Counted from the first letter of the stretch, positions 6,680 to 46,397 are shown. The stretch is 64,000 nucleotides of DNA from Candidatus Levyibacteriota bacterium (GCA_041906785.1 JAYRIM010000028.1:121661-185660); one strand, 5' to 3'. Program-made: numbers and translations. The notes: a model not told the origin generated them from the sequence alone.

Positions 6680-8123
6680 CCTTATTACACTTGGTAATTG
6701 CTTCTTTCTCATTTCTCTGCTCAATAGTATCTTCAGTAGCATAAAAATAAAAAGTTTTAGGCTGATTTTTTTTCCAAGTAACCCGCATCTTTTTTAATGA
6801 TTCACAATCAAATACAACCTCAATTTTTTCATAATCTTTGTTATAGTAAACAGCCAAAGACCCGCTGTGCGGTAAAACACCTACATCTGTAACCCTAGAG
6901 ATTCTATTAATTTCCGGTACACCATTTCCATCAAAATATACTATAGAAAAGTTTGGTAAACTTTTAATTTTTCCTCGTATGTAGTCAAAAAGCTCTTTTC
7001 CATATCTTCTGTCTTGAGTAATTTCCTCTTGGTACTTTCGGTGTTGCATGTATTGAGGAATAAATGCCAAGCTAATAACTACAGGAAATAATAAATAAAG
7101 AATTTTATTTTTATATTGCATTAATCTCCAAATAATCCCTGCAGTTAAGATTGCATAAAAAGGTCTAATAGCGAATAAATATCGATCATAAGAAATATAG
7201 TAATCTCCAAAAATAAAAACAAATCCTGCAACCCCTAATAGTAACAATGAATATATTAATAGAAGTTTTTTATTTTTGAGTAAAAGAATAAATGTCGTTA
7301 AACATAAGAAAAATACAGATGGTAATAGAGATAGAGAAGAAAGATCAATATTGTAGATCGATAGTGTAGATGTATGAGGTATAAATACGCTCTGAACTGT
7401 TTTGGTAAAATTTTGCAATGTGTGTAAATTAAGATGTGCAAACAGCTTAGGTAACGTATGTATTTTAGAGTCAAAAAAGAAAAATCGAGGCATAACATAA
7501 TAGATTAAGTAATATATGAAAATAAAAGGTAAAAATGAAATAATTAAATATTTTATTTTTACAGATTTGACTATAAAAAGATATGTAAACAACAAATAAA
7601 GAATAAGCATATGTGCTCTATAAGGAAAGAATAAGACAGTAATGAAAGCGAAAAATATCGATATTACAAAATACTTTTTGTTATGCGTCTGAGAGTAAAA
7701 TGTAAAAGACATAAGGGTAGAAAAAAGGGTTAGTATAAATTCGTTTATTCGTATTCCTTCAGACATTGTATACAATGCATCTGATCCTACAAAAGAAAAA
7801 ATATAAAAGAAGCCAGCCATGAATGAAGAAAAGTTATTTTTAAAAAGCAGATAAGAATAAAAATAAATAACGAGAGAGGTTATTATAAATAATAAGAAAG
7901 AAAAAGCATAATAGTACACAGGTTCAAGACCAAATAGCATAATGAGTGGATTAAATATATATGACATTGCATAATAAGGATAAAAGAGAGTTTGGTTATG
8001 TCGTTGATAGTAAAGAATAGTGAAATCATCAAGTGCAAAGTTAAAAAGGAGAATAGTGCCAAATGAAAAAAATGAAAATAAAGCAAATAGAATTAAGACG
8101 ATTCTAGAGTCTCTTTTATACAT
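6672..8123 (-). CDS. polytopic membrane protein, GT-C or Wzy-like (hypothetical)
   Basis: Many TM helices followed by a C-terminal soluble domain; sits in the glycan locus. Confidence 0.35.
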   Translation of the reverse strand: MYKRDSRIVLILFALFSFFSFGTILLFNFALDDFTILYYQRHNQTLFYPYYAMSYIFNPLIMLFGLEPVYYYAFSFLLFIITSLVIYFYSYLLFKNNFSSFMAGFFYIFSFVGSDALYTMSEGIRINEFILTLFSTLMSFTFYSQTHNKKYFVISIFFAFITVLFFPYRAHMLILYLLFTYLFIVKSVKIKYLIISFLPFIFIYYLIYYVMPRFFFFDSKIHTLPKLFAHLNLHTLQNFTKTVQSVFIPHTSTLSIYNIDLSSLSLLPSVFFLCLTTFILLLKNKKLLLIYSLLLLGVAGFVFIFGDYYISYDRYLFAIRPFYAILTAGIIWRLMQYKNKILYLLFPVVISLAFIPQYMQHRKYQEEITQDRRYGKELFDYIRGKIKSLPNFSIVYFDGNGVPEINRISRVTDVGVLPHSGSLAVYYNKDYEKIEVVFDCESLKKMRVTWKKNQPKTFYFYATEDTIEQRNEKEAITKCNKAK

Positions 8124-8174: not shown

Positions 8175-8873
8175 ATGAAAAAACCAAATGTATCTATTAT
8201 TTTCCCTGTCCACAATGAAGAAGAGGGAATAACAGAGTTTATCAAGTACGTTTTTAAACAATTGAAACAAGTAGATTTTACATATGAAGTTTTCTTTATT
8301 GAAAATGGTTCTCGTGATAATAGTTTTAATATTTTAAAAGAATTGCAGAAGGAATTCGAATTTAAACTTTTAAAATCAAGGAAGGGGTGGGGAAATGCCG
8401 TAAAAGAAGGTTTTAAAAACGCGCAAGGAGAATATATTTGTTATATGGTTTCAGATTGGCAGGTAGATCCGAAATATATTTCGTTTTTAATGGAAAAAAT
8501 TACTAAATCAAATTTTGATATGGTGAAAGTAAGTAGGATGACAAGGGAAAATAAAACTAGATTAGTTAACTCACGATTATATAATTTACTTGCAATAATT
8601 TTATTTGGAACAAAAACATTCGATATTAACGCTACACCCAAGATAATAAAAGCAAAGATTATTAAAAATAAGCAATTTATTTCAGAAAATATAGCGTTTG
8701 ATTTAGAGTTATTATTATTTCTAAAAAAAAATAAATATAAGTGGAAGGATTTTTCAGTACCATCTTCCAAGCGAAAGACTGGAGTTTCCACAACAAATAT
8801 AAAATCTATTATTGAAATGCTCCGCTATATGATGATATTTAGATTTAGTTCACCTGTTAGAAAAGAACTATAG
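8175..8873 (+). CDS. GT2 family glycosyltransferase
   Basis: VSIIFPVHNEEEGI ... FFIENGSRDNS ... GEYICYMVSDWQVDP motifs. Confidence 0.75.
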   Translation: MKKPNVSIIFPVHNEEEGITEFIKYVFKQLKQVDFTYEVFFIENGSRDNSFNILKELQKEFEFKLLKSRKGWGNAVKEGFKNAQGEYICYMVSDWQVDPKYISFLMEKITKSNFDMVKVSRMTRENKTRLVNSRLYNLLAIILFGTKTFDINATPKIIKAKIIKNKQFISENIAFDLELLLFLKKNKYKWKDFSVPSSKRKTGVSTTNIKSIIEMLRYMMIFRFSSPVRKEL

Positions 8874-9875
8874 CACGGATTGATAGTGTTCAGTTTTTCC
8901 TTGTATTATTCCATATGTTCTACAAAGTTCTAAAACCCTTTGAGGTCTTCTCATAAACATCTCAAGTCTCTCTCTTTCGTGCCTTTGTCCAGGAGCCGGA
9001 TCTAATAAACTAGTTATTCGTCTTGCTAAAAAAGTATATGCTGGCGACACAGGTAGAAATTCGTCAGCTACTGGTTCACGATGAAAAACTTCTTTAATTA
9101 AATTATCAGATTGTGTTTTTGCTACTCCATCGGGATCTTCACCATGAATTTGGGTACGTAGCCAGGAATGAAAATCACCAATAGGGAATCCTATATGCGC
9201 TGCAAGGTCATTAATTCTTTGGATACCCCAGTTTCTGTATTCGAGCCAACGTTGCTTTGGCAGATTCTTGGGGCTGTCTAAATTATTTGCGTGTCTGTTG
9301 ATTAAGTCTTCAAATCTTTTTTCTATAGGTATAATAGTCCCCGCTACTGACCAACTTGCAATTTGTGTTATAGCTGGATCCCAATGTATATCTGATGGAG
9401 AAGTTGCAATTACAGGCCCGACGCTTTTTTCCGGAAAACCACGTGCTCGCTGTATCTTCTCCATAGTTGTAATTAAAGATAAAGGCAGACCTTCTTGTAT
9501 GGCGATAAGTGTTGCTAGATCTATATCTGTATGATCTTTCATATATATGTTAATAGCTTCATTTGCATGTCCAGCCGTTCCTTCATTTGCAAGTTTTCGT
9601 GGAGCGTGATAAGCAGCCATAGTTTCCAAAATAGTGTCTGGTTTTATCACTATTTGATCTTCTGGGGATTTTGACGAATTCGCTACAGTTATTTGCTGCA
9701 TTAGAACATCTGCCACAACGCTAGTCGTTACTATATGAAGTGATAGCATCGGTAGATCGAGCGTTTCATATTTCAATAAGTAGTGAAGCATTTCAGATGA
9801 TTGTAAAGGAACATCGTCTACTTTACCAAGACGTTCCCATGGGGCATATCGTAATCGTTCAACTTTTTGTGACAT
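8868..9875 (-). CDS. hypothetical protein (orphan) with composition atypical for the locus (~40% GC)
   Basis: 335-aa intact ORF on the opposite strand within the sugar-modification block. It is poor in K/I/N compared with its neighbours and has no motif I can assign. Confidence 0.45.
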   Translation of the reverse strand: MSQKVERLRYAPWERLGKVDDVPLQSSEMLHYLLKYETLDLPMLSLHIVTTSVVADVLMQQITVANSSKSPEDQIVIKPDTILETMAAYHAPRKLANEGTAGHANEAINIYMKDHTDIDLATLIAIQEGLPLSLITTMEKIQRARGFPEKSVGPVIATSPSDIHWDPAITQIASWSVAGTIIPIEKRFEDLINRHANNLDSPKNLPKQRWLEYRNWGIQRINDLAAHIGFPIGDFHSWLRTQIHGEDPDGVAKTQSDNLIKEVFHREPVADEFLPVSPAYTFLARRITSLLDPAPGQRHERERLEMFMRRPQRVLELCRTYGIIQGKTEHYQSVL

Positions 9876-10010: not shown

Positions 10011-10937
10011 ATGGATAGAAGAAAAAAATTTAAATTAATAATGATTTCCGCAATGTATGAAAATGGCGGAAACACAACTCACCGTTTCCTCGATGGCCAT
10101 CCTCAACTATTCGTTTATCCATTTGAATCGCAACCTGGAACTTTTCTAGTCTCTGATTATTTAACGACATTATTTCCGCAGAAATACCGATGGCCTGAAC
10201 TTTCTATAGCAGGAAATATTTCTGATGATTATGAGTTATTGATTGATGAAGAATTAAAAAGACATGTTAAAACTCCATTCGCAAGTAAGTTTAAAGATGC
10301 GCATATGGATTTAACGGATAAAAACAGAAAAAAAATCTTTTTAGATATTTTAAAAAAGAAACCAAGAACACGTGCAAATATCGTAGAAGCCTACTATGTA
10401 TCTACATTTGAAGCCTGGAAAGACTATCAAAGATCAGGAAAAGAAATTGCTTATGTTGGATATAGTCCTATCATAGGAGTAGATGCAGAAAAAATTTTCA
10501 GTGATTTTCCTGATGCACATGTCATTCATGTAGTGCGTAATCCTTATTCAGCATATGGGGATACGAAGAAACGTCCAGTGCCGTATTCCATATCCCGTTA
10601 TATGCAAACATGGAATATTGTTCAACTTATGGCATTAAACTTCGCAGCAATGTATCCAAGACAATTTCATATAATTAAATTTGAAGATTTAGTAGCAAGC
10701 CCTAAAAAATTATTTCAAGAATTAGCTCCTAAACTAGGTATTAGATATGCAGAAACACTTGAATATCCTTCTTGGAACGGTAAAAAGCTTGAAAAAGTTG
10801 TCCCATGGGGAACAATTATGACTCCAACGACGGATTTTAATAAGCAAGTAAAAGGTGAATTAACAAAAAAAGAATATGATGCAATTAAAGAACAGACAAG
10901 TGTGATTAATAAACTGTTAGGATATGACCGATTATAA
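10011..10937 (+). CDS. sulfotransferase-family protein (putative carbohydrate sulfotransferase)
   Basis: N-terminal SAMYENGGNTT resembles the 5'-PSB loop (PKSGTT). IHVVRNPYSAYGD resembles the 3'-PB region. C-terminal FEDLVASPKKLFQELAPKLGIRY matches the typical sulfotransferase tail (yEDLvadPe..l..ic.FLGl.y). Confidence 0.5.
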   Translation: MDRRKKFKLIMISAMYENGGNTTHRFLDGHPQLFVYPFESQPGTFLVSDYLTTLFPQKYRWPELSIAGNISDDYELLIDEELKRHVKTPFASKFKDAHMDLTDKNRKKIFLDILKKKPRTRANIVEAYYVSTFEAWKDYQRSGKEIAYVGYSPIIGVDAEKIFSDFPDAHVIHVVRNPYSAYGDTKKRPVPYSISRYMQTWNIVQLMALNFAAMYPRQFHIIKFEDLVASPKKLFQELAPKLGIRYAETLEYPSWNGKKLEKVVPWGTIMTPTTDFNKQVKGELTKKEYDAIKEQTSVINKLLGYDRL

Positions 10938-11997
10938 GAAATTCGGTTTTTCAAAAAAAGAACTTCAAAAACATTCTTCACTTCAAAAAAAAACTTTTTT
11001 CTTAAAAACAGAATCGTGTTTTACTCCCAAAATATTTCTAGCAAACAAAAAAAAAGTTATTAAAAACAGAACAGTTAAATCAATAATTGATTTATATTTT
11101 GGCAAACAACAAGCTTCTGTTTTCGCTATTAAGAATGGTACACTTCACGTTCTTTATAGAATTGTTATTAATGATAAAGCATATATACTACGAATTAACA
11201 AGTTTTCAAAAAACTATAAAGAATTCTCGTTCTTTACTGAACAATGGATTTACGAAGTTTTACATGCTAATAAACTTTCTTCTTTAAATGTTATAGCAGT
11301 TGATATCTCTCGCAAAATTTTTCCTTTTGACTTTCAAATTATTGAAGAGGTTCCTGGAGTATCATTATTCGAATTAGGTAGAGAGCGAAAGATTGCATAT
11401 AAACAACACTATAATTTAGGTATTTATATAGCTAGTGTTCATAAAAATAAAACTTCCGGTTTTGGTCCTTTTTCAATAGATGATATTTTTCTAGAAAAAG
11501 GAATAGGTATCCATAACAGCTGGAAAGACTTCGTTTTTTTAAATCTTGAAGCGCACATTGGATACTGTATTAAACATAAGTTATTAGATAATACTAGCGC
11601 TCAAAAAATTGAGACATATTTTTCACATTTAGATAAAAGACTTTTTTACGTTGATCCTGTTCTACTTCATGGTGATATTGCAAATCATAATGTATTTGTC
11701 AAAGGAAATAAAATTTCTGGTGTAATAGATTGGGAAGATAGCATTTCTGGAGACCCAGTATATGATATAGCTTATTTTGGTACTGGTTGTTATAGAAATG
11801 AACAGTGGCTTTCGGCATTTTTAGACGGTTATAAAATAGTAAAATCTTTACCAAAAGACTTTGAAAAAAAATACTGGTTCTATTATCTACGAATTGCGAT
11901 TGCAAAATCTATTATTAGACATGCGACTAATAAAAAAAATAGAAACTTTGGAAAGAGAATAGAATATGGTTTAGAGAAACTCGAATCTCTTGTGTAA
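10924..11997 (+). CDS. APH/choline-kinase-like phosphotransferase (putative sugar or small-molecule kinase)
   Basis: Brenner and activation motifs LLHGDIANHNVFV ... VIDWEDSISGDPVYD, typical of the aminoglycoside phosphotransferase/CotS family. Confidence 0.7.
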   Translation: MTDYKKFGFSKKELQKHSSLQKKTFFLKTESCFTPKIFLANKKKVIKNRTVKSIIDLYFGKQQASVFAIKNGTLHVLYRIVINDKAYILRINKFSKNYKEFSFFTEQWIYEVLHANKLSSLNVIAVDISRKIFPFDFQIIEEVPGVSLFELGRERKIAYKQHYNLGIYIASVHKNKTSGFGPFSIDDIFLEKGIGIHNSWKDFVFLNLEAHIGYCIKHKLLDNTSAQKIETYFSHLDKRLFYVDPVLLHGDIANHNVFVKGNKISGVIDWEDSISGDPVYDIAYFGTGCYRNEQWLSAFLDGYKIVKSLPKDFEKKYWFYYLRIAIAKSIIRHATNKKNRNFGKRIEYGLEKLESLV

Positions 11998-12025: not shown

Positions 12026-12997
12026 ATGAAAAAGACAGTTTTAATTACTGGTGGATTAGGATTTATAGGAACAAATTTAATTCATGCACTTCTTAGAGAG
12101 ACAAATTATTCATTTATTATTCTTGATAAAGTAACATATGCAGGAAGGATTGATAATTTACCACAAAAAGTAAAAGATAGAAAAAGGATACAATTCGTTG
12201 AAGGTGACATCATAAATAAAAATATAGTTTTATCAGTTCTCAAAAATACTTCAATGGTAATCCATCTAGCAGCTAATACGCATACTGCACGTTCGTTAAA
12301 AGATCCTCTTTCATTTGTTAAAACAAATGTTTTAGGTACAACGCAACTGCTTGATGTTGCTAGTAAATATCCTATTCAGAAATTTATTTATATATCTAGC
12401 TCAGAAGTATATGGTGATAGAAAAGAAAAAACACCAATGGATGAGAATCATCCGTTAAATCCTGTTACACCTTATGCAGTCACAAAGCTTGCTGCAGATA
12501 GAATGGCTTATTCATATTATTTAACAAAAAAACTACCAATTGTTATACTTCGGCCTTTCAATACATACGGGTCTTATCAACACACCGAAAAAATGATTCC
12601 TCTTTTTATAACTCGACTTCTTAAAAATGAACCAATTACATTACATCATGGTGGACTTCAAAAAAGAGATTGGGTATTTGTCGAAGATCATGTGCGCGCA
12701 ATATTCTTAGCACTTATTACTCCTATAGAAAAGATTAATGGGGAAATTTTTAATATAGGAACAGGGAAAGCTACATCAACGAAAACTGTAGCAGAGTTAA
12801 TAGCAAAAGCATTAAATAAAAATAAGAACCTTGTTCAAGTAGAAAAAACGTCTTTACCTGGAACTATGAGTAATGTAGGGGTTTCTAAAAAAGCTGAAAA
12901 AATATTGGGATGGAAGAATGAAGTTTCGCTAGAAGAAGGTATTGCAAAGACTGCATTATGGTATAAAAAAAATCCTGATTGGTGGAGAAATATATGA
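12026..12997 (+). CDS. NAD-dependent nucleotide-sugar 4,6-dehydratase/epimerase (RfbB-like SDR)
   Basis: MKKTVLITGGLGFIGTN start (internal ATG of ORF 11990..12997); YISSSEVYGD catalytic region. Confidence 0.75.
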   Translation: MKKTVLITGGLGFIGTNLIHALLRETNYSFIILDKVTYAGRIDNLPQKVKDRKRIQFVEGDIINKNIVLSVLKNTSMVIHLAANTHTARSLKDPLSFVKTNVLGTTQLLDVASKYPIQKFIYISSSEVYGDRKEKTPMDENHPLNPVTPYAVTKLAADRMAYSYYLTKKLPIVILRPFNTYGSYQHTEKMIPLFITRLLKNEPITLHHGGLQKRDWVFVEDHVRAIFLALITPIEKINGEIFNIGTGKATSTKTVAELIAKALNKNKNLVQVEKTSLPGTMSNVGVSKKAEKILGWKNEVSLEEGIAKTALWYKKNPDWWRNI

Positions 12998-13917
12998 AAA
13001 AAAATATTGTTTTAACAGGTGGAGGAGGATTTATCGGTGCGACCTTAATTCGGAAAAGTATCAAGAAATATAATGTGCATGTCATAGCAAGGGAAGGCGG
13101 TTCATTATGGAGGTTAGACGATCTACAGAAAGATCTAACTATCCATACAGGATTACTTGAAGATTTACCAAAATTGACAAGGTTAATGCAAGAAATTCAG
13201 CCGAAAGCGATATTTCACCTTGCTACATATGGAGCTTATCCCTCACAAAATATTCCATTAAAAATGATCGATGTAAACGTGAAGGGAACAATGAATCTAT
13301 TAGAGAGCATTAAAAATGTTGAATATGACCAATGTATTGTAACAGGAAGTTCGTCAGAATATGGAAAAAAAGATAAAGAGATGCGGGAAAATGATTTTAT
13401 TGAACCAAATAATTATTATGCTGCTACAAAAGCAGCACAAACGCATTTATGCCAAGTTTTTTCAAAAACTAACAAAAAACCTTTACTCATTTTTCGTCTT
13501 TTTAATGTATATGGACCATTTGAAGAGAAAGGGAGATTGGTGCGAACAGTTATTGAATCTGTACTAAACAAAAAACCTATACCACTAGCTACTGGAAAAG
13601 AAGCAAGAGATTTTATTCATGTAGAAGACGTGGCAGATGCATTTTTACGAGGTATACATAAACGGACATTATATGGTGAAGTATTCAACATAGGTACTGG
13701 CAAGCAAACAACGATAAAGCAACTTGCTGAACATATAATCGACATTACAGGAATCAAGGTGCCTATCCAACTGAATGTTTATCCGGGACGAGAATGGGAT
13801 GCATTTCACTGGAAAGCAGATACAAAGAAAACAGAAAATGTGCTTGGTTGGAAAGCAAAATACTCTCTAGATGAAGGATTAAAGAAGACCATTGCATGGT
13901 ATAGGTTACAAAAATAG
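12994..13917 (+). CDS. NAD-dependent epimerase/dehydratase (SDR)
   Basis: MKKNIVLTGGGGFIGATL Rossmann motif; start overlaps the upstream gene (ATGA). Confidence 0.75.
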   Translation: MKKNIVLTGGGGFIGATLIRKSIKKYNVHVIAREGGSLWRLDDLQKDLTIHTGLLEDLPKLTRLMQEIQPKAIFHLATYGAYPSQNIPLKMIDVNVKGTMNLLESIKNVEYDQCIVTGSSSEYGKKDKEMRENDFIEPNNYYAATKAAQTHLCQVFSKTNKKPLLIFRLFNVYGPFEEKGRLVRTVIESVLNKKPIPLATGKEARDFIHVEDVADAFLRGIHKRTLYGEVFNIGTGKQTTIKQLAEHIIDITGIKVPIQLNVYPGREWDAFHWKADTKKTENVLGWKAKYSLDEGLKKTIAWYRLQK

Positions 13918-13918
13918 T

Positions 13919-14731
13919 ATGTCTAATTCAGAATTACATAAAGTTTCTAAAGAGATCGCATTATTAACACTTGAAATTTCTTATTTAGCAAAAACCGGAC
14001 ATGTTGGCTCTGCATTATCAATAGTAGATATTTTAACAGTGTTGTATTTCACGCAGTTAAACGTTACGCTTGAAAATTTATCCTCGGAAAAAAGAGATCG
14101 ATTTATTCTCAGTAAGGGCCACGCCGCTGCTGCGCTGTATGCGACTTTATATAAAAAAGGGATTTTATCAAAAAAGAAATTGTATAGCTTCGGTTCTGAT
14201 GAAGGAGGGTTATGTGAACATACAGAGATTGAAGATACAGGCATAGAGATGACAAGTGGTTCTTTAGGGCATGGGTTAGGTTTTGGTGTGGGCATTGCAT
14301 TAGGAATGAAGCTTGCAACTGTAAAAAGCCAGGTATATGTATTGATTAGTGACGGAGAGTGTGGAGAAGGCTCTGTATGGGAGTCGGCATATTTAGCCAG
14401 TAAATTAAGATTAGATAATTTGACAGTTATTATTGATAATAATAAATGGCAATGTTTTGGAAAGGTTTCAGACATTACAAATATTACTCCTTTTAGGCCT
14501 AAATGGGAATCATTCGGATGGCATGTAGAAGAGATAGAGGGGCACGATACGTCAGCAATTCGCAATTCATTTCAAAGAATCAAATTAGTAAAAGAAAAAC
14601 CTCATGTCATTATTGCTAATACTGTAAGTGGTAAGGGAATATCTATGATCGAAGACAAACTGATCGGTCATTATAAAGTCTTTACAGATGAGGAATATGT
14701 ATTAGCCAGAAAGGAAATTGAACAGCTATGA
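13919..14731 (+). CDS. transketolase, N-terminal (TPP-binding) subunit of a split transketolase
   Basis: GHVGSALSIVDILTVLYF ... SKGHAAAALYATL ... ISDGECGEGSVWE are hallmark transketolase N-domain motifs; ~270 aa. Confidence 0.85.
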   Translation: MSNSELHKVSKEIALLTLEISYLAKTGHVGSALSIVDILTVLYFTQLNVTLENLSSEKRDRFILSKGHAAAALYATLYKKGILSKKKLYSFGSDEGGLCEHTEIEDTGIEMTSGSLGHGLGFGVGIALGMKLATVKSQVYVLISDGECGEGSVWESAYLASKLRLDNLTVIIDNNKWQCFGKVSDITNITPFRPKWESFGWHVEEIEGHDTSAIRNSFQRIKLVKEKPHVIIANTVSGKGISMIEDKLIGHYKVFTDEEYVLARKEIEQL

Positions 14732-15681
14732 GGAAAGCCTTTATAAAAGCTTTATGCGAAATAGCAAAAAAAGACGAAAGAGTTGTACTCCTTACTGGTG
14801 ATTTAGGGTTTAACGTTTTAGAACCTTTTAAAGAACATTTCCCAGATAGATTTTTTAATATAGGTGTAGCCGAAGCAAATCTCGTAACTGTAGCCGCAGG
14901 TTTAGCTACTGCCGGTTATATTCCCTTAACGTACTCTATAGCTACATTTATGAGTATGAGACCTTTCGAACAGATACGAAACATGGTAAGTCTGCAGAAT
15001 CTAAACGTAAAAATAATAGCTGTTGGGGCAGGAATTTCCTACACAAAAGCTGGACCTACACATCATGCAATTGAAGATATTTCGCTTATGCGTTCTTTAC
15101 CGAACATGACTATTATCGCTCCTTCAGACCAAAAAGAAACATATCAAGCAACAAAAGCGATGCTAGCGTATTCAGGCCCTGTGTATTTCAGAATAGGAAG
15201 AAATCCTGCCGATAGTATTGTTATCCCAGAATCAACATTTATCATAGGTAGAGCGAGATTATTACAAAAAGGTGAGAAAATCGCATTATTGGCTACTGGT
15301 AATCAAGTAGAGATTGCATTTCAAGTTGCAAAAATACTAAAGCAATTAAATATTCAAGCGTCTATATATAGTTTTCCCACAGTTAAACCACTAGATAAAC
15401 AAACACTCAGCGAAATTTATTCTAGCCATGTAGTAATTGCTACTCTTGAGGATCATAGTATTACTGGGGGATTTGGTTCAGCGATTTGTGAAGATGTTTA
15501 TGAAGAACCGCTTGCTGTGTATCCTTCAATTGTACGCTTCGGATTTAAGCCTGGATATAGCAAATTGTCAGCATCATATAGCAAAATGATCGAAGAATAC
15601 AGTTTTTCTCCTTATCAAATTGCTGAGAGAATTCTACAAATTATGATGAAACAATTTTCTCTGCAGAACAATTCTCTTTAA
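14728..15681 (+). CDS. transketolase, C-terminal (pyrimidine-binding) subunit of a split transketolase
   Basis: FNIGVAEANLVTVAAGLA ... and C-terminal domain features; ATGA overlap with the N-subunit gene. Confidence 0.85.
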   Translation: MRKAFIKALCEIAKKDERVVLLTGDLGFNVLEPFKEHFPDRFFNIGVAEANLVTVAAGLATAGYIPLTYSIATFMSMRPFEQIRNMVSLQNLNVKIIAVGAGISYTKAGPTHHAIEDISLMRSLPNMTIIAPSDQKETYQATKAMLAYSGPVYFRIGRNPADSIVIPESTFIIGRARLLQKGEKIALLATGNQVEIAFQVAKILKQLNIQASIYSFPTVKPLDKQTLSEIYSSHVVIATLEDHSITGGFGSAICEDVYEEPLAVYPSIVRFGFKPGYSKLSASYSKMIEEYSFSPYQIAERILQIMMKQFSLQNNSL

Positions 15682-15691: not shown

Positions 15692-16630
15692 ATGATGCCT
15701 TTCATTAGTATTGTTATACCAACATACAATGCCCAAAAATATTTAAAACAGTGTTTGAAAAGTATTTTTAAGCAGTCATATCCTCGATCATCATATGAAG
15801 TATTAATAGTTGATGGGGGTAGCAGTGATCGGACTCTCAATATTGCAAAACAATTTAAAACACGAATACTTAAAAATAAATATAAAGATGCAGAAAGTGG
15901 TAAAGCGATCGGAATTTCTAAAGCAAAAGGTCAGATAATCGCACTGATAGATGCAGATAATGAGTTAGTAAATGATAATTGGTTAGAGGAAATGGTGTAT
16001 CCATTTGTAAAACATAAACAAATTTTTGGTGTTGAATCACGTTGGTTAGTAAATAAAAAACATTCTTTGTTAAACCAGTATTTTGCTATGTTAGAGATCG
16101 CCGATCCTCTTGCAAGACGTTTTCATCCTAAAGTTCAGGTTACAGAATATAAACGATATTTTCTGCATAAAGTTAAAGTCGGTGAAACCCCCATAATAGG
16201 TGCCAATGGTTTCCTCTATAGAAAAAAATTTATAGATATCATTGGATATGGATCGAAATTTGAAGAGGTAAATTTTGTGGCCAAATTAGTTAATAAAGGA
16301 TATGTGTATTATGCAGTTCCGAAAAGTGTAGGAATTTACCATCATTATGTATCTTCACTTTCAGGCTATATTAAAAAAAGAATAAAAATCGGTAATAAAT
16401 TTATGAATAGAAAAATGCAAGGACAAGCAACATGGGTTGATCAATCAAACAATAAACACTTCTTTTCAGCTGTTTTTTATAATATAACTCTCATTGGACC
16501 GGTTATTGAGTCTATATCACAAATGAAAAAAACAAAAAATATTGCATGGTTATGGCATCCAATTATTTCTTTTGTAACTGTAGTAGTTTATGGAATAATC
16601 TTTTTAAAATATAAATTAAAGAAATTATGA
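15692..16630 (+). CDS. GT2 family glycosyltransferase with C-terminal TM helix
   Basis: ISIVIPTYNAQKYL ... LIVDGGSSDRT ... IALIDADNE motifs. Confidence 0.75.
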   Translation: MMPFISIVIPTYNAQKYLKQCLKSIFKQSYPRSSYEVLIVDGGSSDRTLNIAKQFKTRILKNKYKDAESGKAIGISKAKGQIIALIDADNELVNDNWLEEMVYPFVKHKQIFGVESRWLVNKKHSLLNQYFAMLEIADPLARRFHPKVQVTEYKRYFLHKVKVGETPIIGANGFLYRKKFIDIIGYGSKFEEVNFVAKLVNKGYVYYAVPKSVGIYHHYVSSLSGYIKKRIKIGNKFMNRKMQGQATWVDQSNNKHFFSAVFYNITLIGPVIESISQMKKTKNIAWLWHPIISFVTVVVYGIIFLKYKLKKL

Positions 16631-17391
16631 ATATTGATCATTATTACGAGAAACTAAGATACACAAATAAATCTAAAGAAGAACGTTTAGATATTTATAA
16701 AAAAAGAGTAAATGTTTACCTTGAGATTTTGAAAAAAAACTCTCTTTTTAATAAAAGAAATAAAATGAAAATATTGGATATTGGGTGTGGGGATGGTGGA
16801 TTGGGATTTGAATTGAAAAAGCATATTGCATCTGAAGTATATGGTGTGGATATTTCTAAGGCTGGTGTATCGTTGGCAAATAAATTAGGAATTAAAAGTA
16901 AAGTTGCAGACGTGCAAAAAAAGATCCCTTTTAAATCTTCATCCTTTGATGCTCTAATTGCAAACGAAATAATAGAACATTTATACGATACTGATACCTT
17001 TATTAATGAATCTAAAAGGATATTGAAAAAAAAAGGTTTATTTATTATTGGAACACCAAACCTTTCTTTTTGGTTTAATAGAGTTATTTTTTTGTTAGGA
17101 ATATATCCAATGTATCAGGAAGTGAGTATACGTCATAGAAATTTTGGGATGGGGTTTCTTCGTCGATTCGTAGATACGCAACCCGTGGGGCATGTTCGCG
17201 TTTACAATACACAAGCACTAAAAGATATGCTTTCTTTTTATGGATTTGAAATTATTTCATTACATGGAGGAAGTGTTAATTTCGAATCACAAAACTCTTT
17301 TTTAACTTCTATTTATAGACTTTTTGATACATTTTTCAGTCATTTTTCCTCTTTGTCGTCAGATATTATTATCATTGCAAGAAAAAAATAA
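16627..17391 (+). CDS. class I SAM-dependent methyltransferase
   Basis: ILDIGCGDGGLGFEL (motif I) ... FDALIANEIIEHL. Confidence 0.75.
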   Translation: MNIDHYYEKLRYTNKSKEERLDIYKKRVNVYLEILKKNSLFNKRNKMKILDIGCGDGGLGFELKKHIASEVYGVDISKAGVSLANKLGIKSKVADVQKKIPFKSSSFDALIANEIIEHLYDTDTFINESKRILKKKGLFIIGTPNLSFWFNRVIFLLGIYPMYQEVSIRHRNFGMGFLRRFVDTQPVGHVRVYNTQALKDMLSFYGFEIISLHGGSVNFESQNSFLTSIYRLFDTFFSHFSSLSSDIIIIARKK

Positions 17392-17439: not shown

Positions 17440-19131
17440 ATGAAGTTTCCAGGAAAAATATTTAAACATGATAGTAAATATTTCTTTTTTCTTCTCTTAG
17501 TGTGTCTAGTAGTTTTCTATAAATTATTTTTTACCTTTTATCAGCAAGATGAATGGCATGCTTTAGGCTTTATCATATCAAAGGGTTTCAGCTATATTTT
17601 TTCTCAAGCATCTTTGCTAGATATTCTTTTTCTTGAAAATAGACCTCTTGCTCGATTCTTAAATATTTTGTTTTTTGGTTTCCTTCCGTTTAATATAATA
17701 CCTTTATCATTATTTGCTATTACTGTTCACTCAATAAATGCATTCTTGATATTTAAAATTGCAAAGAAGTTAACAAATACGATATATTTCTCGCTATTAG
17801 GCTCGTTAATTTTCCTCATAAATGATACAAGTAAACAGGCTATTATTTGGTTCGGAGCTGTTACAGGGACGTTACTTTCTACGACAGGAATATTGTTGTC
17901 TGTTTATTTCTTTCTTTTATATCTTATAGAACATAAAAAAACAAAGGCATATGCAGCAGTTATTTTTATGATTTTATCATTAGGTTTTAAAGAAAGTGGG
18001 CTTTTTCTCGTTCTTTTTCTTCCTTGTATTGAACTTTTATACCGAATATATAAAGAACACTCGTGGAGGTTAAGTAAGATATCCATCGGTATTTTTTTAA
18101 TTGGATTGTTTTTTTTAGGAGTAAAATTTTTAAAATTATTCTTTCTGACACAGAACTATTCTGGATATGTAAGCAGTAATTCAGGGGGAGGGTTATATAA
18201 AATTGTTTGGGGATTTATTACATATCCGCTAGAAACTTTTTCTCAATTACTTATCCCCGATGAATATTTTTATCCTTATTCGCATAAACTAACAAATATT
18301 ATTTTTCCCTATTTTGATACAGTTGGTTATTCCGTACAAGTATCTGAAAAAGTAATGCTTGAATTACTATCGCTTTTACTGGCATTTTTAATACTTTTTC
18401 CTATGTTTCTTTTCTTATTAAGACAAAGAAATAAATTTCCTATACTGTTCAGCACAGTACTTTATATGTTATGTTTTATACCTTTTATAGTTATAAACAA
18501 AAGCTCTGCGTATTTTGAATCAAGATATTATTACACTTTTTTGATTGCCTTCTCATTAATAATTGCTTTATTTTTTTATCAGCTATCAATTGTTTTTCAT
18601 AAAACAGTAAAATCGAAAAGAAAGTTTAATGTTCTTAAAAGACTTGGTTTTATTATGTTTGTAACTTACTTTCTAATCCAAATTTCTTCAATATCCACTA
18701 AGCTCGATTATCAAGTAGAAAGAGCATCTACTCAAAGACCTATTCTTGAACAAATGATCTCGTCAGTTCCAAAATTATCTCTAAAACATATTTTCTACAT
18801 AACGAGTGATAGAGATTTTATAACTGAAAATAATCCATTACCATTCCAAAACGGGATAGGATATACCATTTTGACTTATTATGTCGCACGTACAAATGAT
18901 TTTGGGCATAAAAAATTGCTTAATAATAATTTTTTTTGGGAATTAGGTAATCAAGGGTATAGGGAATTGTATAATGGTTATGGGTTTGGTTTCTACACCG
19001 AATTACAAAAACTTTTATTAGATAAAAAAAAATATAATTTTCAAGAAAACGACATTACTTCTTTTTACTATGATTCTAAGAAAAATTCTCTTATAAACAA
19101 TACTAATACTATAAGAAAAAAATTGCATTAA
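17440..19131 (+). CDS. polytopic GT-C-type membrane glycosyltransferase (hypothetical)
   Basis: ~12 TM helices plus a C-terminal soluble domain; context. Confidence 0.4.
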   Translation: MKFPGKIFKHDSKYFFFLLLVCLVVFYKLFFTFYQQDEWHALGFIISKGFSYIFSQASLLDILFLENRPLARFLNILFFGFLPFNIIPLSLFAITVHSINAFLIFKIAKKLTNTIYFSLLGSLIFLINDTSKQAIIWFGAVTGTLLSTTGILLSVYFFLLYLIEHKKTKAYAAVIFMILSLGFKESGLFLVLFLPCIELLYRIYKEHSWRLSKISIGIFLIGLFFLGVKFLKLFFLTQNYSGYVSSNSGGGLYKIVWGFITYPLETFSQLLIPDEYFYPYSHKLTNIIFPYFDTVGYSVQVSEKVMLELLSLLLAFLILFPMFLFLLRQRNKFPILFSTVLYMLCFIPFIVINKSSAYFESRYYYTFLIAFSLIIALFFYQLSIVFHKTVKSKRKFNVLKRLGFIMFVTYFLIQISSISTKLDYQVERASTQRPILEQMISSVPKLSLKHIFYITSDRDFITENNPLPFQNGIGYTILTYYVARTNDFGHKKLLNNNFFWELGNQGYRELYNGYGFGFYTELQKLLLDKKKYNFQENDITSFYYDSKKNSLINNTNTIRKKLH

Positions 19132-19134: not shown

Positions 19135-21048
19135 ATGTTTACTTTTAGCGCAAAAGACTTACCATTTTTCTTCACAGAACAACTAGATAAATTTTCAATT
19201 ATACCTTTCGTTTGGGATTCTACCAGAGCAAATGGTTTTGGTGAAAATATTTCTTCTCTTTTATGGTTAAGAAGCTTTATATATATACCTTCTAGTTTTC
19301 TGCATAATCTTTTCAACTTTGATTGGTTCCAGATAACAATATTTTATTATTTTCTTTTTATTTTTTTTGCTCTGATTTCAATACGGACTTTTACATCTTT
19401 TTTTGAAATAAAAAATATCTTTATAAAGATATTTTTTGGAATAATTTTTATCACCAATACATATACTGCTATGCTTTTAGATGGTGGCCAATTGGGAGTT
19501 TTGTTGGCATACAGTTTAGTACCTCTCGTTTTTACACTTTTTTCAAATGTAGTTACGAAGAAAACACATAGATTTATTGATGTGATTGATGCCGGGATAA
19601 TACTAGCATTACAACTGCTTATAGATATCCGAATTGCATTACTTACAGTTTTCTGCATTTTTCTTTACTGGATTATCCATATTTTTCTATTTCCCGATAA
19701 AATAAATTTTTTAAAATTAATACTTAAATATAGAACTTCATCATTTATTATTGTATTTCTACTTCATCTGTTTTGGATAATTCCTTCATTAATAAGCTTT
19801 ATGACTTCTAGCCAATTCAATGTCCCATCGGATAGTAGACAAACCGGTCAATATTTTAGTTTTGCCAAATTTGAAAATGCTATCGCATTATTACATCCAA
19901 ATTGGCCAGAAAATATTTTTGGAAAAGTATATTTTATGAAACCTGAATTTCTCATTATTCCCCTTGCTGTTTTTTCAGTACTATTATTGATTGACTTAAG
20001 AAATAAGGAGAAAACTAAGAACATATTATTTTTTTGTCTTCTTAGTATCATTGGAATCTTTTTAGCGAAAGGGACAAATGAACCTTTTGGGTTTATATAC
20101 ACCTATATGCTTCACTATATTCCTGGATTTGTGTTCTTTCGAGATCCTACAAAATGGTATATATTGATCGCATTTTCATACTCTTTTTTATTATCGTTCG
20201 TAGTATCTACATTTGTTGGTTATATAAAAAGTAAACTGATTAAACAATGTATACTTCTGATAATCTTTTTAGTTTTTTTAAGTCCTTCGATTTCTGTAAT
20301 ACCGCCGGACAGAAATAGCGCACTTCGCATAAAAGAAGTTCCCTCGTCATATGTACAACTTAAAGATTTTTTAATTAATAAAGATTTTTCTCGAACATTC
20401 TGGATACCTGAACGCCAGACATTTGGTTATTATGATGCTATGCATCCAGCAATAAATGGCAATGAATACATGAAAGAATTTGTACCTGAGACTATCGCAA
20501 AGAAATTAATAAGTAAGAAATATGAATATATGTTTAAGGAACAATCTATTCGGTATGTTATTGTTCCTGAAGATACAAACGGTGAATTATTTCTTTCAGA
20601 TCGAAAGTTTGATCAAAGAAAATATAGAAAGGTAATTACGGCTCTGGATTCTATAGACTGGCTTAAGAAAATTGAAACATTTGGTTCAATACAAGTATAT
20701 GAGATTTATGAACCAATGACTCTTTTTTGGGATGCAAATACAAAAATGAATTTTCCGGGAAGCATGGTTAATCAGACTACTTACACAGTAAATGTAGCTA
20801 AACAAAACCGAACGAAACTTATCTTTTCAACTGGTTTTGATCCTCATTGGGAAGCAAGAATGAATGATAAAATAATCCATCCAAAATCTTATAAAACTTT
20901 AACAGCATTTAATCTGCCAACTGAAGCTAACGAGGTTTTTATCACTTATAATATTCAGCCTATAGTTAGATTTTGGTTTTTTAGTTCCTGTATGCTTTTC
21001 TTGCTGATCATTGTTGCAAGATATATAATGTGGAGGAGAAATATATGA
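19135..21048 (+). CDS. YfhO-like GT-C membrane glycosyltransferase
   Basis: N-terminal polytopic domain; C-terminal DPHWEARMNDK ... final TM resembles the YfhO C-terminus (DPGWKAxVDGK). Immediately followed by a GtrB/CsbB-like gene. Confidence 0.55.
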   Translation: MFTFSAKDLPFFFTEQLDKFSIIPFVWDSTRANGFGENISSLLWLRSFIYIPSSFLHNLFNFDWFQITIFYYFLFIFFALISIRTFTSFFEIKNIFIKIFFGIIFITNTYTAMLLDGGQLGVLLAYSLVPLVFTLFSNVVTKKTHRFIDVIDAGIILALQLLIDIRIALLTVFCIFLYWIIHIFLFPDKINFLKLILKYRTSSFIIVFLLHLFWIIPSLISFMTSSQFNVPSDSRQTGQYFSFAKFENAIALLHPNWPENIFGKVYFMKPEFLIIPLAVFSVLLLIDLRNKEKTKNILFFCLLSIIGIFLAKGTNEPFGFIYTYMLHYIPGFVFFRDPTKWYILIAFSYSFLLSFVVSTFVGYIKSKLIKQCILLIIFLVFLSPSISVIPPDRNSALRIKEVPSSYVQLKDFLINKDFSRTFWIPERQTFGYYDAMHPAINGNEYMKEFVPETIAKKLISKKYEYMFKEQSIRYVIVPEDTNGELFLSDRKFDQRKYRKVITALDSIDWLKKIETFGSIQVYEIYEPMTLFWDANTKMNFPGSMVNQTTYTVNVAKQNRTKLIFSTGFDPHWEARMNDKIIHPKSYKTLTAFNLPTEANEVFITYNIQPIVRFWFFSSCMLFLLIIVARYIMWRRNI

Positions 21049-22729: not shown

Positions 22730-22733
22730 GAAT

Positions 22734-43202: not shown

Positions 43203-43228
43203 ATTTTATGTATAAAATTTTGGTGATT

Positions 43229-43258
43229 GGGGGGCCCCGATGTGAAATCGGGACCCCC
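43229..43258 (-). terminator. GC-rich hairpin at the left boundary of the high-GC island (candidate terminator of the minus-strand phosphorylase gene)
   Basis: GGGGGCCCCGAT-gtgaa-ATCGGGACCCCC (11-bp stem with one mismatch); an A/T-rich run follows on the minus strand. Confidence 0.4.
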
Positions 43259-43304
43259 TCCGCACCAGTTGACTCGAGTTGAAGGCGTCAGTGAGTGTAG
43301 CTTC

Positions 43305-45147: not shown

Positions 45148-45159
45148 ACGTAGCCCTCC

Positions 45160-46239: not shown

Positions 46240-46397
46240 GGTAATCCTCCAGTGAACTGATGCTTTGAGTTGGTTGAGACATGGTAGACCACATTCAAAT
46301 AATGTGATCTCCACTGTTCCATACTTGTCTTTCCTAAGGACAAGTGAGAAATCTAAGGAACAGCAGAATGAAAAATGCCAAACATTTTAAAGGTTCC

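What the first reader, a model, noticed from the sequence alone, without database searches (positions are those of the whole stretch)
12026..15681. Split transketolase embedded between SDR sugar-nucleotide enzymes, a sulfotransferase-like gene, an APH-like kinase and a methyltransferase: pathway for an unusual sugar
Two overlapping genes encode the N and C halves of transketolase. They sit immediately after two NAD-dependent dehydratase/epimerases and within 4 kb of a sulfotransferase-like protein, an APH-like kinase, a SAM-methyltransferase and a GT2. Glycolytic or pentose-phosphate neighbours are absent. Split TPP-dependent transketolase pairs in glycan loci are used for two-carbon ketol transfer onto keto-sugar intermediates to make branched or extended sugars. 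Together with sulfation, phosphorylation and methylation, this predicts a highly decorated, possibly novel monosaccharide on the cell surface.
Basis: inference. Interest (0 to 1): 0.65.

Follow-up and report, generated by a model that had tools for sequence, protein, structure and literature searches.

The report
Sugar-branching split transketolase in glycan operon
A two-gene transketolase-like enzyme that has lost the residues for normal sugar-phosphate substrates sits in a cell-surface sugar operon and most likely adds a two-carbon branch to a nucleotide-activated keto-sugar, a reaction so far only proposed for a few antibiotic pathways.

Summary
On the + strand lie SDR1 (12026-12997), SDR2 (12994-13917), TK_N (13919-14731) and TK_C (14728-15681). 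They are tightly packed, between a sulfotransferase-fold gene plus APH-like kinase upstream and a GT2 plus methyltransferase downstream, inside a ~38-kb glycan locus of a low-GC, probably CPR, genome.

The pair is not a housekeeping transketolase. It keeps the ThDP/Mg motif, Glu411 and the catalytic histidines. It lacks His461, Asp469 and the Ser385 loop, which bind phosphosugars in canonical enzymes. In my tree, a clade of 123 sequences containing it holds no canonical type.

In the loci examined for relatives with this altered site, the neighbours were sugar-nucleotide or glycan genes, never pentose-phosphate genes. In Microcystis and at least six metagenomic loci the pair adjoins RfbF/RfbG/RfbH, which make the substrate of the branching enzyme YerE. 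A reductase is always coupled, once as a TK_C-ADH fusion.

Best reading (about 0.6): ThDP-dependent two-carbon branching of an NDP-keto-sugar, followed by ketoreduction. Donor, acceptor and nucleotide are unknown.

"Sulfation" is doubtful, because the sulfotransferase-fold protein lacks the catalytic Lys/Arg of the PAPS loop.

I rate it a new variant of a known kind.

The parts
8175..8873 (+). Small soluble GT2 glycosyltransferase (232 aa, no predicted TM segment) that is co-conserved with the cassette.
   Evidence: Pfam Glycos_transf_2 E 6e-23. Orthologues of 47-55% identity occupy the same position upstream of the sulfotransferase-fold gene in L001, L003 and L005.
10011..10937 (+). Sulfotransferase-fold protein with a non-canonical nucleotide loop. 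Function unknown.
   Evidence: Pfam Sulfotransfer_3 E 1.7e-12, with the match starting only at profile position 15. No PDB match by sequence. The AlphaFold model has pLDDT 87. The best Foldseek hits are the CurM and OLS activating sulfotransferases and TPST (E 9e-9, TM about 0.5). The invariant motif 'ISAMYENGGNT..R' replaces 'PKSGTT', while 'RNP' is kept. Identity is at least 55% across CPR, Acidobacteriota and Phycisphaerae.
10924..11997 (+). APH-family small-molecule kinase, overlapping the preceding gene by 14 nt.
   Evidence: Pfam APH E 1.3e-20. The closest solved structure is hygromycin-B 4-O-kinase (E 3e-13). The catalytic 'HGDxxxxN' and 'IDWE' motifs are present. The gene overlap is shown. 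The gene is paired with the sulfotransferase-fold gene in L001, L003, L005, L011, L015 and L018.
12026..12997 (+). SDR1: an RmlB-family extended SDR of the NAD+ type. It is the probable keto-sugar-forming enzyme.
   Evidence: TIGR01181 scores 286 bits, below its cutoff of 365. The best PDB hit is dTDP-glucose 4,6-dehydratase 6bi4 (E 3e-65). The motif is 'SSSEVYG' instead of 'STDEVYG'. An Asp follows beta-2. Orthologues occur only in L003, L005 and L018. In L015 a CDP-glucose-dehydratase-like SDR holds the same position.
12994..13917 (+). SDR2: an NADPH-type extended SDR. It is the conserved partner immediately upstream of TK_N and the probable ketoreductase.
   Evidence: Pfam Epimerase E 2.4e-47. 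Orthologues of 51-59% identity lie directly upstream of TK_N in L001, L003, L005 and L018, and two genes upstream of it in L011 (37-41% in L006 and L024). It has an Arg after beta-2 and the Ser/YxxxK motif.
13919..14731 (+). TK_N: the ThDP-binding (PP) half of the split transketolase-like enzyme.
   Evidence: Pfam Transketolase_N E 5e-40. PDB 6YAK, the N chain of the C. hydrogenoformans split TK, matches at E 1e-54. His26, His66, His100, Asp155, Asn185 and His261 (E. coli numbering) are kept. The clade signatures 'SDGE', 'WQCFG' and 'H-Y-K' are present.
14728..15681 (+). TK_C: the pyrimidine-binding plus C-terminal half, with an altered substrate site.
   Evidence: Pfam Transket_pyr E 1e-38 and Transketolase_C E 9e-21. 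PDB 6YAJ matches at E 4.5e-57. Arg358, Glu411, His473 and Arg520 are kept. His461 is Gly, Asp469 is Ala, and the Ser385 loop is changed and one residue shorter.
15692..16630 (+). GT2 glycosyltransferase (312 aa, one C-terminal hydrophobic segment).
   Evidence: Pfam Glycos_transf_2 E 1e-25. An orthologue of 34% identity follows the TK module in L001. In L007 and L014 the corresponding GT2 has two TM segments and is paired with GtrA.
16627..17391 (+). SAM-dependent methyltransferase, overlapping the GT2 gene by ATGA.
   Evidence: Pfam Methyltransf_11 E 4e-19. The overlap is shown. Methyltransferases are frequent neighbours of the TK pair elsewhere.

Best explanation
TK_N and TK_C form a ThDP- and Mg-dependent carboligase of the transketolase superfamily that has been recruited from the pentose-phosphate pathway into nucleotide-sugar tailoring.

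Proposed order of reactions:
1. A keto-sugar nucleotide is made. In this window SDR1 probably does this. In relatives the enzymes are RfbF/RfbG with or without RfbH, giving CDP-4-keto-6-deoxy- or CDP-4-keto-3,6-dideoxy-hexose.
2. The TK pair carries a ThDP-bound two-carbon carbanion, most likely dihydroxyethyl taken from a ketose phosphate or hydroxypyruvate. It adds this to the sugar's ring carbonyl, giving a C-branched sugar with a tertiary alcohol and a hydroxyacetyl side chain.
3. The NADPH-type SDR2 reduces the new side-chain ketone.
4. The methyltransferase, the APH-like kinase and the sulfotransferase-fold protein modify the sugar or an intermediate further.
5. GT2 and GT-C enzymes of the locus place it on the cell envelope.

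Shown here: enzyme family, intact cofactor and catalytic residues, loss of phosphosugar-binding residues, clade separation, and conserved gene context. Inferred: the acceptor, the donor, the position of branching and the order of steps.
For: 1. Cofactor and catalytic machinery are intact: the GDG-type motif Asp155/Asn185, Glu411, and His26, His66, His100, His261 and His473. His461, Asp469 and the Ser385 loop are replaced. In canonical TK these bind the substrate phosphate and the acceptor's C2-OH.
2. The change defines a clade. About 140 of the 150 best 50%-identity representatives lack both His461 and Asp469. In an NJ tree, the clade spanning the window, Microcystis and L006 has 123 tips and contains no canonical type.
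3. Context is consistent. All 10 loci inspected by hand (the window, L001, L003, L005, L006, L007, L011, L012, L014, L015) carry the pair among SDR, DegT, GT and methyltransferase genes.
4. A Pfam census of 124 immediate neighbours in 31 further loci gave Epimerase 17, DegT 12, Polysacc_synt_2 11, Bac_transf 9, methyltransferases 9 and GT2 5, with no PPP family in the top 25. Seven of those 31 loci carry a TK_C that keeps His461, so the census is not purely of the altered-site type.
5. In Microcystis the pair follows RfbF, RfbG and RfbH, all above NCBIfam cutoffs (347>300, 474>278, 763>423). These make CDP-3,6-dideoxy-4-keto-hexose, the substrate of YerE (PMC12247030).
6. RfbH orthologues of 53-59% identity lie beside altered-site TKs in L014, L024, L027, L067, L088 and L095.
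7. A reductase is coupled. SDR2 is the conserved upstream partner. A Zn-ADH follows TK_C in L012 and L013. P0159 is a natural TK_C-ADH fusion. This parallels YerE followed by YerF.
8. Contrast cases. Canonical His461/Asp469 split TKs sit with a DeoR regulator, a DeoC aldolase and a GH1 (L016), or with a transaldolase-like gene (L066).
Against: No transketolase-family enzyme has been shown to accept a ketone or an NDP-sugar (PMC12247030). In this window there is no RfbF, RfbG or RfbH, and no nucleotidyltransferase lies next to the cassette. SDR1 lacks the Asp of the 'TDE' dyad, and its L005 orthologue also lacks the Glu, so formation of a keto-sugar here is inferred, not shown. Arg358 and Arg520 (Arg or Lys) are kept, which would also fit a phosphorylated substrate. 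In the wider clade only about half of the loci have an SDR among the four nearest genes. All context evidence is correlative.
Confidence: 0.6

Rival explanations
1. Same role (branching of an NDP-keto-sugar), but with pyruvate as donor. The enzyme would decarboxylate it and transfer an acetyl or 1-hydroxyethyl unit, as DXS, YerE and E1-type enzymes do. The product would be a yersiniose-like sugar rather than a hydroxyacetyl-branched one.
For: TK_C scores almost as well against DXS (TIGR00204, 182 bits) as against transketolase (NF004559, 188 bits). DXS structures are its second-best PDB hits. The RfbF/G/H context is exactly that of yersiniose synthesis (PMC12247030).
Against: TK_N is clearly of transketolase type (Transketolase_N 138 bits against DXP_synthase_N 33 bits). 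His100 and His473, which hold the donor's C1 hydroxyl in transketolases, are kept in the window and in most relatives.
Confidence: 0.14
2. The pair extends a sugar chain rather than branching it. It would add two carbons to an aldehyde, for example a C6 dialdose made by an SDR, to give an octulose-type nucleotide sugar that SDR2 then reduces.
For: Aldehydes are the native acceptors of transketolases. SDR1 is not a canonical 4,6-dehydratase. A reductase is coupled.
Against: Where the neighbouring pathway is identifiable (RfbF/G/H), the product has a C6 methyl group, and its only electrophile is the C4 ketone. Asp469, which positions the alpha-hydroxyl of aldose acceptors, is lost.
Confidence: 0.1
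3. The pair works on free sugar phosphates to supply an unusual precursor for the glycan. It would make a ketose phosphate that is reduced, phosphorylated and nucleotide-activated, for example into an alditol phosphate or heptose.
For: Kinases (APH-like or choline-kinase-like) and Zn-ADHs of the TarJ type occur next to the pair. L014 carries SIS (GmhA-like) and HAD genes at its edge. Arg358 and Arg520 are kept.
Against: His461 and the Ser385 loop of the phosphate pocket, and Asp469, are lost throughout the clade. The conserved partners are extended SDRs, whose C-terminal domains bind nucleotide sugars. RfbF/G/H adjacency points to CDP-sugars.
Confidence: 0.12
4. It is the organism's ordinary pentose-phosphate transketolase, which happens to lie in a glycan locus.
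For: Split transketolases can be true housekeeping enzymes; the closest solved structure, the C. hydrogenoformans split TK (6YAK/6YAJ), is deposited as a transketolase. Whether this genome has another tkt could not be checked.
Against: Key substrate residues are lost. The pair falls in a clade that excludes canonical types. The cassette is conserved across phyla. Members occur in Microcystis, and cyanobacteria need a standard transketolase for the Calvin cycle (established knowledge). PPP or catabolic neighbours were seen only beside canonical His461/Asp469 types.
Confidence: 0.04

Closest known systems
YerE/YerF pathway (yersiniose A, Yersinia pseudotuberculosis) and YerE-like enzymes such as ErwE and MMAR_2332
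   Same: ThDP-dependent C-C bond formation on a CDP-4-keto-3,6-dideoxyhexose made by RfbF/G/H-type enzymes, followed by ketoreduction, for a cell-surface glycan. The same upstream genes flank relatives of this TK pair.
   Different: YerE is a single-chain enzyme of the decarboxylase (acetolactate-synthase-like) superfamily and uses 2-keto acids. The enzyme here is a two-chain member of the transketolase superfamily, so any shared function would be a non-homologous replacement.
Split-gene transketolases proposed for hydroxyacetyl branching in miharamycin and amipurimycin, plus 13 other Streptomyces clusters (PMC12247030, citing Krug et al. 2024)
   Same: Two-gene TK architecture, placement in a sugar-tailoring cluster next to an oxidoreductase, and the proposed ketone acceptor.
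   Different: Those enzymes are in antibiotic clusters and are all from Streptomycetes, with function unproven. This one is in cell-envelope glycan loci of CPR, Acidobacteriota and Cyanobacteria. I could not obtain the Streptomyces sequences, so shared ancestry and a shared active-site signature are untested.
Split transketolase of Carboxydothermus hydrogenoformans (PDB 6YAK/6YAJ)
   Same: Best sequence match among solved structures (E 1e-54 and 4.5e-57), with the same N/C split and the same cofactor residues.
   Different: It keeps His461, Asp469 and the Ser-containing phosphate loop. TK_C identity to it is only 37% over the trimmed alignment, and it falls outside the altered-site clade.
Two-subunit E1-like (alpha-KADH2) branching enzymes of deoxysugar antibiotics, e.g. 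KbDH-alpha/beta (PMC12247030)
   Same: Two-chain ThDP enzymes that add a C2 branch to a deoxy-keto-sugar.
   Different: They belong to a different ThDP superfamily. Here E1_dh and PDH E1 models score only 25-57 bits, against 138-229 bits for transketolase models. They use pyruvate as donor.
CurM/OLS 'activating' sulfotransferases (closest fold of the sulfotransferase-like neighbour)
   Same: Same fold; top Foldseek hits 4gbm and 4gox.
   Different: TM-score is only about 0.5 and identity 17%. The PAPS 5'-phosphosulfate loop is replaced by 'YENGGNTT', which has no Lys/Arg at the catalytic position.

Membership tests
Transketolase superfamily (ThDP enzymes with PP + Pyr + TK_C domains) | Domain set Transketolase_N, Transket_pyr and Transketolase_C. 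| tested here: met
   Pfam E 5e-40, 1e-38 and 9e-21. The best PDB hits are transketolases.
Transketolase superfamily (ThDP enzymes with PP + Pyr + TK_C domains) | ThDP/Mg2+ motif (Asp155, Asn185), cofactor-activating Glu411, and catalytic His26, His66, His100, His261 and His473 (E. coli TktA numbering). | tested here: met
   All are present in the alignment with E. coli TktA and 6YAK/6YAJ. Glu411 is present in 80 of 80 metagenomic relatives and His473 in 78 of 80.
Canonical transketolase, EC 2.2.1.1 (pentose-phosphate enzyme) | Phosphate pocket Arg358, Ser385, His461 and Arg520. | tested here: not met
   Arg358 and Arg520 are kept. His461 is Gly, and the Ser385 loop 'DLSKST' becomes 'DLGFNV' with one residue fewer. 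The same holds for about 140 of 150 representatives.
Canonical transketolase, EC 2.2.1.1 (pentose-phosphate enzyme) | Asp469, which binds the C2 hydroxyl of the aldose acceptor. | tested here: not met
   It is Ala in the window, and Leu, Ala, Asn, Gln and others across the clade.
Canonical transketolase, EC 2.2.1.1 (pentose-phosphate enzyme) | Genomic association with pentose-phosphate or sugar-catabolic genes; sole tkt of the genome. | tested here: inconclusive
   There are no PPP genes in the window or beside any altered-site relative. They occur only beside canonical types. The rest of this genome was not available, so whether this is the sole tkt is untested.
Keto-sugar C-branching ThDP enzymes (function shared with YerE) | Placement next to enzymes that make an NDP-4-keto-deoxyhexose. 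| tested here: inconclusive
   Met in relatives: RfbF/G/H in L007, L014, L024, L027, L067 and L095 (RfbH also in the contig-truncated L088), and RfbF/G-like in L006 and L015. In the window only the atypical RmlB-like SDR1 is present.
Keto-sugar C-branching ThDP enzymes (function shared with YerE) | A dedicated reductase for the new side-chain ketone (YerF equivalent). | tested here: met
   SDR2 is conserved directly upstream. A Zn-ADH is adjacent in L012 and L013, and fused to TK_C in P0159. The reductase's substrate itself is not shown.
Keto-sugar C-branching ThDP enzymes (function shared with YerE) | Demonstrated carboligation onto a ketone or NDP-sugar. | not testable with these tools
   This needs enzyme assays. 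According to PMC12247030, no TK-type enzyme has been shown to do it.
YerE family (decarboxylase superfamily) | Single chain with TPP_enzyme_N/M/C domains. | tested here: not met
   Only a marginal TPP_enzyme_C hit (26 bits) lies within TK_N. The architecture is that of a transketolase.
PAPS-dependent sulfotransferases (for the 10011-10937 protein) | Sulfotransferase fold. | tested here: met
   Pfam Sulfotransfer_3 E 1.7e-12. The top 20 Foldseek hits are all sulfotransferases.
PAPS-dependent sulfotransferases (for the 10011-10937 protein) | 5'-phosphosulfate-binding loop (PKSGTT or PRSGTT) with the catalytic Lys/Arg. | tested here: not met
   The loop reads 'MYENGGNTT' and is invariant in 20 diverse homologues. 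The Pfam match starts after this loop. The 3'-phosphate motif 'RNP' is kept.
APH / eukaryotic-like small-molecule kinases (for the 10924-11997 protein) | Catalytic loop HxDxxxxN and the metal-binding Asp. | tested here: met
   'HGDIANHN' and 'IDWED' align with hygromycin-B 4-O-kinase.

The most novel reading that the evidence does not exclude
The conserved cross-phylum cassette is: sulfotransferase-fold protein, APH-like kinase, NADPH-SDR, split TK-like enzyme. In the novel reading it makes a sugar not yet described, for example a 4-C-(1,2-dihydroxyethyl)- or hydroxyacetyl-branched deoxyhexose. The kinase and sulfotransferase-fold pair would then be a new two-enzyme module that prepares the keto-sugar. 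It could do this by turning a hydroxyl into a phosphate or sulfate leaving group, replacing the RfbH/E1 deoxygenation route with which it never co-occurs. Alternatively it could work through a 3'-phospho-nucleotide donor analogous to PAPS. This would give CPR bacteria and others a new class of envelope sugar, and it would provide the first transketolases that accept ketones.
Probability: 0.15. Interest if true: 0.8.

Novelty: new variant of a known kind. Interest (0 to 1): 0.6.

Why it matters
If correct, transketolase-type sugar-branching enzymes are not a curiosity of about 15 Streptomyces antibiotic clusters. They would be a large, old and widespread family, with hundreds of 50%-identity clusters, working on cell-envelope glycans in CPR bacteria, Acidobacteriota and Cyanobacteria.

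That has three consequences:
- Biocatalysis gains a pool of candidates for making hydroxy-functionalised tertiary alcohols, a capability the 2025 review lists as missing.
- There is now a simple sequence signature that separates these enzymes from housekeeping tkt in genome annotation: Gly at position 461, no Asp at 469, and 'H-Y-K' after His261. This also affects metabolic reconstructions of CPR genomes, which may currently count these genes as the pentose-phosphate transketolase.
- A culturable organism, Microcystis aeruginosa LEGE 91341, is available in which the predicted branched sugar can be looked for.

Tried and rejected
- Exact look-up of the window's own TK_N (P0001) found no contig on record. 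The listing of cluster members returned no name or accession. The CPR assignment rests on the named close homologues (Gottesmanbacteria, Levybacteria, Staskawiczbacteria), the presence of DUF5667 and DUF4012 domains, and about 30% GC.
I could therefore not look for a second tkt in the same genomes.
- Five literature searches for transketolase in glycan, O-antigen or CDP-sugar contexts gave nothing relevant. The paper by Krug et al. 2024 is not held, so the Streptomyces split TK sequences could not be compared.
- Alignment A2 (30 diverse TK_C sequences) was too divergent for the metagenome scan. A smaller alignment, A3, worked.
- My first tblastn census under-detected SDRs and over-called RfbH by picking up generic DegT proteins. 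I replaced it with identity thresholds and a Pfam census of neighbours.
- I considered a DXS identity and a PDH-E1 identity and rejected both on domain scores.
- I considered a heptose or S7P supply role because L014 has GmhA/GmhB-like genes. I ranked it low because the phosphate pocket is lost.
- Rfam found no RNA family in the window.

Full report
**Observation**

The window has about 30% GC. From position 1 to about 38.5 kb it is one very large glycan-synthesis locus. It contains many GT2, GT4 and PMT_2 genes, a ManC-like nucleotidyltransferase, a Bac_transf initiating transferase and several multi-TM proteins. The dcw/peptidoglycan cluster follows at 48-63 kb.

The finding's genes are real and tightly packed on the + strand:

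| Gene | Coordinates | Junction |
|---|---|---|
| Sulfotransferase-fold protein | 10011-10937 | |
| APH-like kinase | 10924-11997 | 14-nt overlap with the preceding gene |
| SDR1 | 12026-12997 | |
| SDR2 | 12994-13917 | ATGA overlap |
| TK_N | 13919-14731 | |
| TK_C | 14728-15681 | ATGA overlap |
| GT2 | 15692-16630 | |
| Methyltransferase | 16627-17391 | ATGA overlap |

Domain assignments come and junctions. There is no second transketolase and no transaldolase, rpe or rpi gene in the 64 kb.

**The enzyme**

Both halves are of transketolase type. Their best solved relative is the split transketolase of Carboxydothermus hydrogenoformans, 6YAK/6YAJ (E 1e-54 and 4.5e-57).

I aligned the halves with that enzyme and with E. 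coli TktA. The following are intact:
- the ThDP/Mg motif (Asp155, Asn185);
- Glu411;
- His26, His66, His100, His261 and His473.

Three elements that define a phosphosugar transketolase are gone:
- His461 is Gly.
- Asp469 is Ala.
- The Ser385 loop is changed and one residue shorter.

Arg358 and Arg520 remain. TK_N carries matching signatures: 'SDGE', 'WQCFG', and Tyr-Lys after His261. These recur in most of its 120 closest homologues.

**A separate clade**

An exhaustive HMMER search of 1.84 billion cluster representatives with TK_C gave 2130 hits at E ≤ 1e-30. About 140 of the 150 best lack both His461 and Asp469. Canonical types first appear around rank 83. In a neighbour-joining tree rooted on E. 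coli TktA, the clade spanning the window, Microcystis and a Staskawiczbacteria member has 123 tips and includes no canonical sequence. Of 80 metagenomic relatives, at least 66 have Gly461.

**Context in relatives**

The cassette small GT2, sulfotransferase-fold, APH, (SDR1), SDR2, TK_N, TK_C is conserved at 50-65% identity in several CPR contigs. These include L001, L003 (GCA_964629685.1), L005 and L011 (Gottesmanbacteria).

It also occurs in an Acidobacteriota contig, L015. There it lies in a Wzm/Wzt O-antigen locus, preceded by an RfbF orthologue (52% identity to the Microcystis one) and a CDP-glucose-dehydratase-like SDR with the 'SSDKAYG' motif.

Matching exact contig lengths between the two homologue tables shows that at least 23 of 36 contigs of 4.9 kb or more that carry a close TK_N homologue also carry a close homologue of the sulfotransferase-fold protein. 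This is an inference from those tables, not a direct measurement.

In Microcystis aeruginosa LEGE 91341 (L007) the order is RfbF, RfbG, RfbH, SDR, FkbM methyltransferase, TK_N, TK_C, GtrA, GT2. The first three score above their NCBIfam cutoffs. These three enzymes make CDP-3,6-dideoxy-4-keto-hexose, the physiological acceptor of the branching enzyme YerE (PMC12247030).

True RfbH orthologues (53-59% identity) lie beside altered-site TKs in L014, L024, L027, L067, L088 and L095. RfbF and RfbG orthologues lie beside several more.

A Pfam census of the two genes on each side of the pair in 31 further loci is dominated by extended SDRs, DegT, Polysacc_synt_2, Bac_transf, methyltransferases and GT2. 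No pentose-phosphate family is in the top 25. Seven of those 31 loci carry a TK_C that keeps His461 (four fully canonical His461/Asp469 types, one His461 with a gap at 469, one His461/Ala469, and L072), so the census mixes types.

By contrast, a canonical His461/Asp469 split TK sits with a DeoR regulator, a DeoC aldolase and a GH1. The only transaldolase-like neighbour found lies beside another canonical type, L066.

**Coupled reduction**

SDR2 is the gene most faithfully linked to TK_N. It is 51-59% identical in L001, L003, L005, L011 and L018, and 37-41% in L006 and L024. It has an Arg after beta-2, typical of NADPH-using reductases. SDR1 instead has the Asp typical of enzymes with tightly bound NAD+. 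In a marine lineage a Zn-ADH follows TK_C. One representative, P0159, is a TK_C-ADH fusion. This mirrors the YerE-then-YerF logic.

**Mechanism proposed**

A keto-sugar nucleotide is formed, probably by SDR1 here and by RfbF/G with or without RfbH elsewhere. The TK pair adds a ThDP-bound two-carbon unit to the ring carbonyl. SDR2 reduces the side-chain ketone. Tailoring enzymes and glycosyltransferases finish the job.

In L007 and L014 the GT2 that follows has two TM helices and a GtrA partner. This suggests transfer to a polyprenyl phosphate and then use by GT-C enzymes such as the PMT_2 proteins in this window.

Only the family, the residues and the context are shown. The acceptor, the donor (ketose phosphate or hydroxypyruvate versus pyruvate), the nucleotide and the site of attack are inferred. 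Weak points:
- SDR1 reads 'SSSEVYG' rather than 'STDEVYG', and its L005 orthologue reads 'SSSG'.
- No nucleotidyltransferase is adjacent in this window.
- No transketolase has yet been shown to accept a ketone (PMC12247030).

**The sulfotransferase-fold protein and the kinase**

The kinase has intact catalytic motifs and is closest to hygromycin-B 4-O-kinase.

The sulfotransferase-fold protein is very conserved, at 55% identity or more across CPR, Acidobacteriota and Phycisphaerae. It models confidently (pLDDT 87). Its best structural matches are the CurM and OLS activating sulfotransferases and the tyrosylprotein sulfotransferases. However, its PAPS 5'-loop is the invariant 'YENGGNTT', with no Lys/Arg at the catalytic position, while the 3'-phosphate 'RNP' motif is kept. 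Sulfation is therefore unproven.

The ten loci with this protein have no RfbH orthologue, and the seven loci with RfbH have none of this protein. This hints that the two are alternative modules. It could also simply reflect phylogeny.

**Comparison with the literature and novelty**

A 2025 review states that split-gene transketolases have been proposed, not demonstrated, for hydroxyacetyl branching in miharamycin and amipurimycin. It adds that 13 further candidates, all from Streptomycetes, were found by genome mining. It assigns cell-envelope sugar branching to YerE-like enzymes only (PMC12247030). My other searches found no report of transketolases in glycan loci.

The present case is therefore a new variant of a proposed kind. 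It has the same architecture and likely the same chemistry. It differs in biological setting and taxonomic range, has a defined active-site signature, and comes with an unexplained conserved kinase and sulfotransferase-fold pair.

**Verdict**

- Observation: confirmed.
- Housekeeping explanation: very unlikely (about 0.04).
- Interest: 0.6.

Noticed in passing
window 43200-46400 (minus-strand ORFs 43305-44351, 44284-45147, 45160-46314): A sharp island of about 3.2 kb at about 58% GC lies in a genome of about 32% GC. It encodes an NMT1/THI5-like binding protein, an SsuC-like ABC permease and an unassigned 348-aa ORF. It looks like a recent horizontal acquisition or an assembly chimera. NMT1/THI5-type binding proteins include carriers of thiamine-pyrimidine precursors, which would be of interest in a genome with ThDP enzymes.
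   Followed up: partly
window 10011-10937 and homologues P0271-P0390: The sulfotransferase-fold family is unusually conserved across distant phyla (at least 55% identity), with about 70 invariant residues in 20 diverse members. It is almost always annotated only as 'hypothetical' or 'sulfotransferase'. Its nucleotide loop is not that of any characterised sulfotransferase.
   Followed up: partly
loci L001, L003, L005, L011, L015, L018, L065, L083, L089 versus L007, L014, L024, L027, L067, L088, L095: The sulfotransferase-fold gene and RfbH never occur together beside the TK pair (10 loci against 7, counting the window). They may be alternative modules for preparing the acceptor sugar.
   Followed up: partly
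protein P0159 (658 aa); L012 4861-5913 and L013 4154-5206: A natural fusion of TK_C to a zinc alcohol dehydrogenase. The same ADH is encoded as a separate gene directly after TK_C in a marine lineage, followed by a 547-aa choline-kinase/APH-like protein and radical SAM enzymes.
   Followed up: partly
window 25455-28628: A 1057-aa protein with about 22 predicted TM segments and only a weak Wzy_C (O-antigen ligase/polymerase) match. A 1002-aa counterpart holds the same position in L003 and L004.
   Followed up: no
window 22190-22729 and 22719-23885: A short ORF containing only a GT4 N-terminal domain (179 aa) overlaps the start of a full-length GT4 (388 aa). The same two-gene arrangement (194 aa + 380 aa) is present in L003 and L004, so it is conserved rather than a frameshift artefact.
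   Followed up: no
window 17440-19131, 19135-21048, 6672-8123 (minus strand), 8868-9875 (minus strand): Three multi-TM proteins (9, 11 and 8 predicted TM segments) and a 335-aa protein with one TM segment have no Pfam family. They sit between the tailoring genes and the glycosyltransferases.
   Followed up: no
window 56949-57704: A 251-aa NTP_transferase lies between MurA and GlmS in the dcw/peptidoglycan cluster. It is the only RfbF/RmlA-like nucleotidyltransferase in the window (25-30% identity to RfbF-type enzymes) and could supply a nucleotide sugar.
   Followed up: no
L006 8200-8964 (minus strand): In the Staskawiczbacteria locus a NUDIX-domain protein lies between the RfbG-like dehydratase and the SDR2-TK module.
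   Followed up: no
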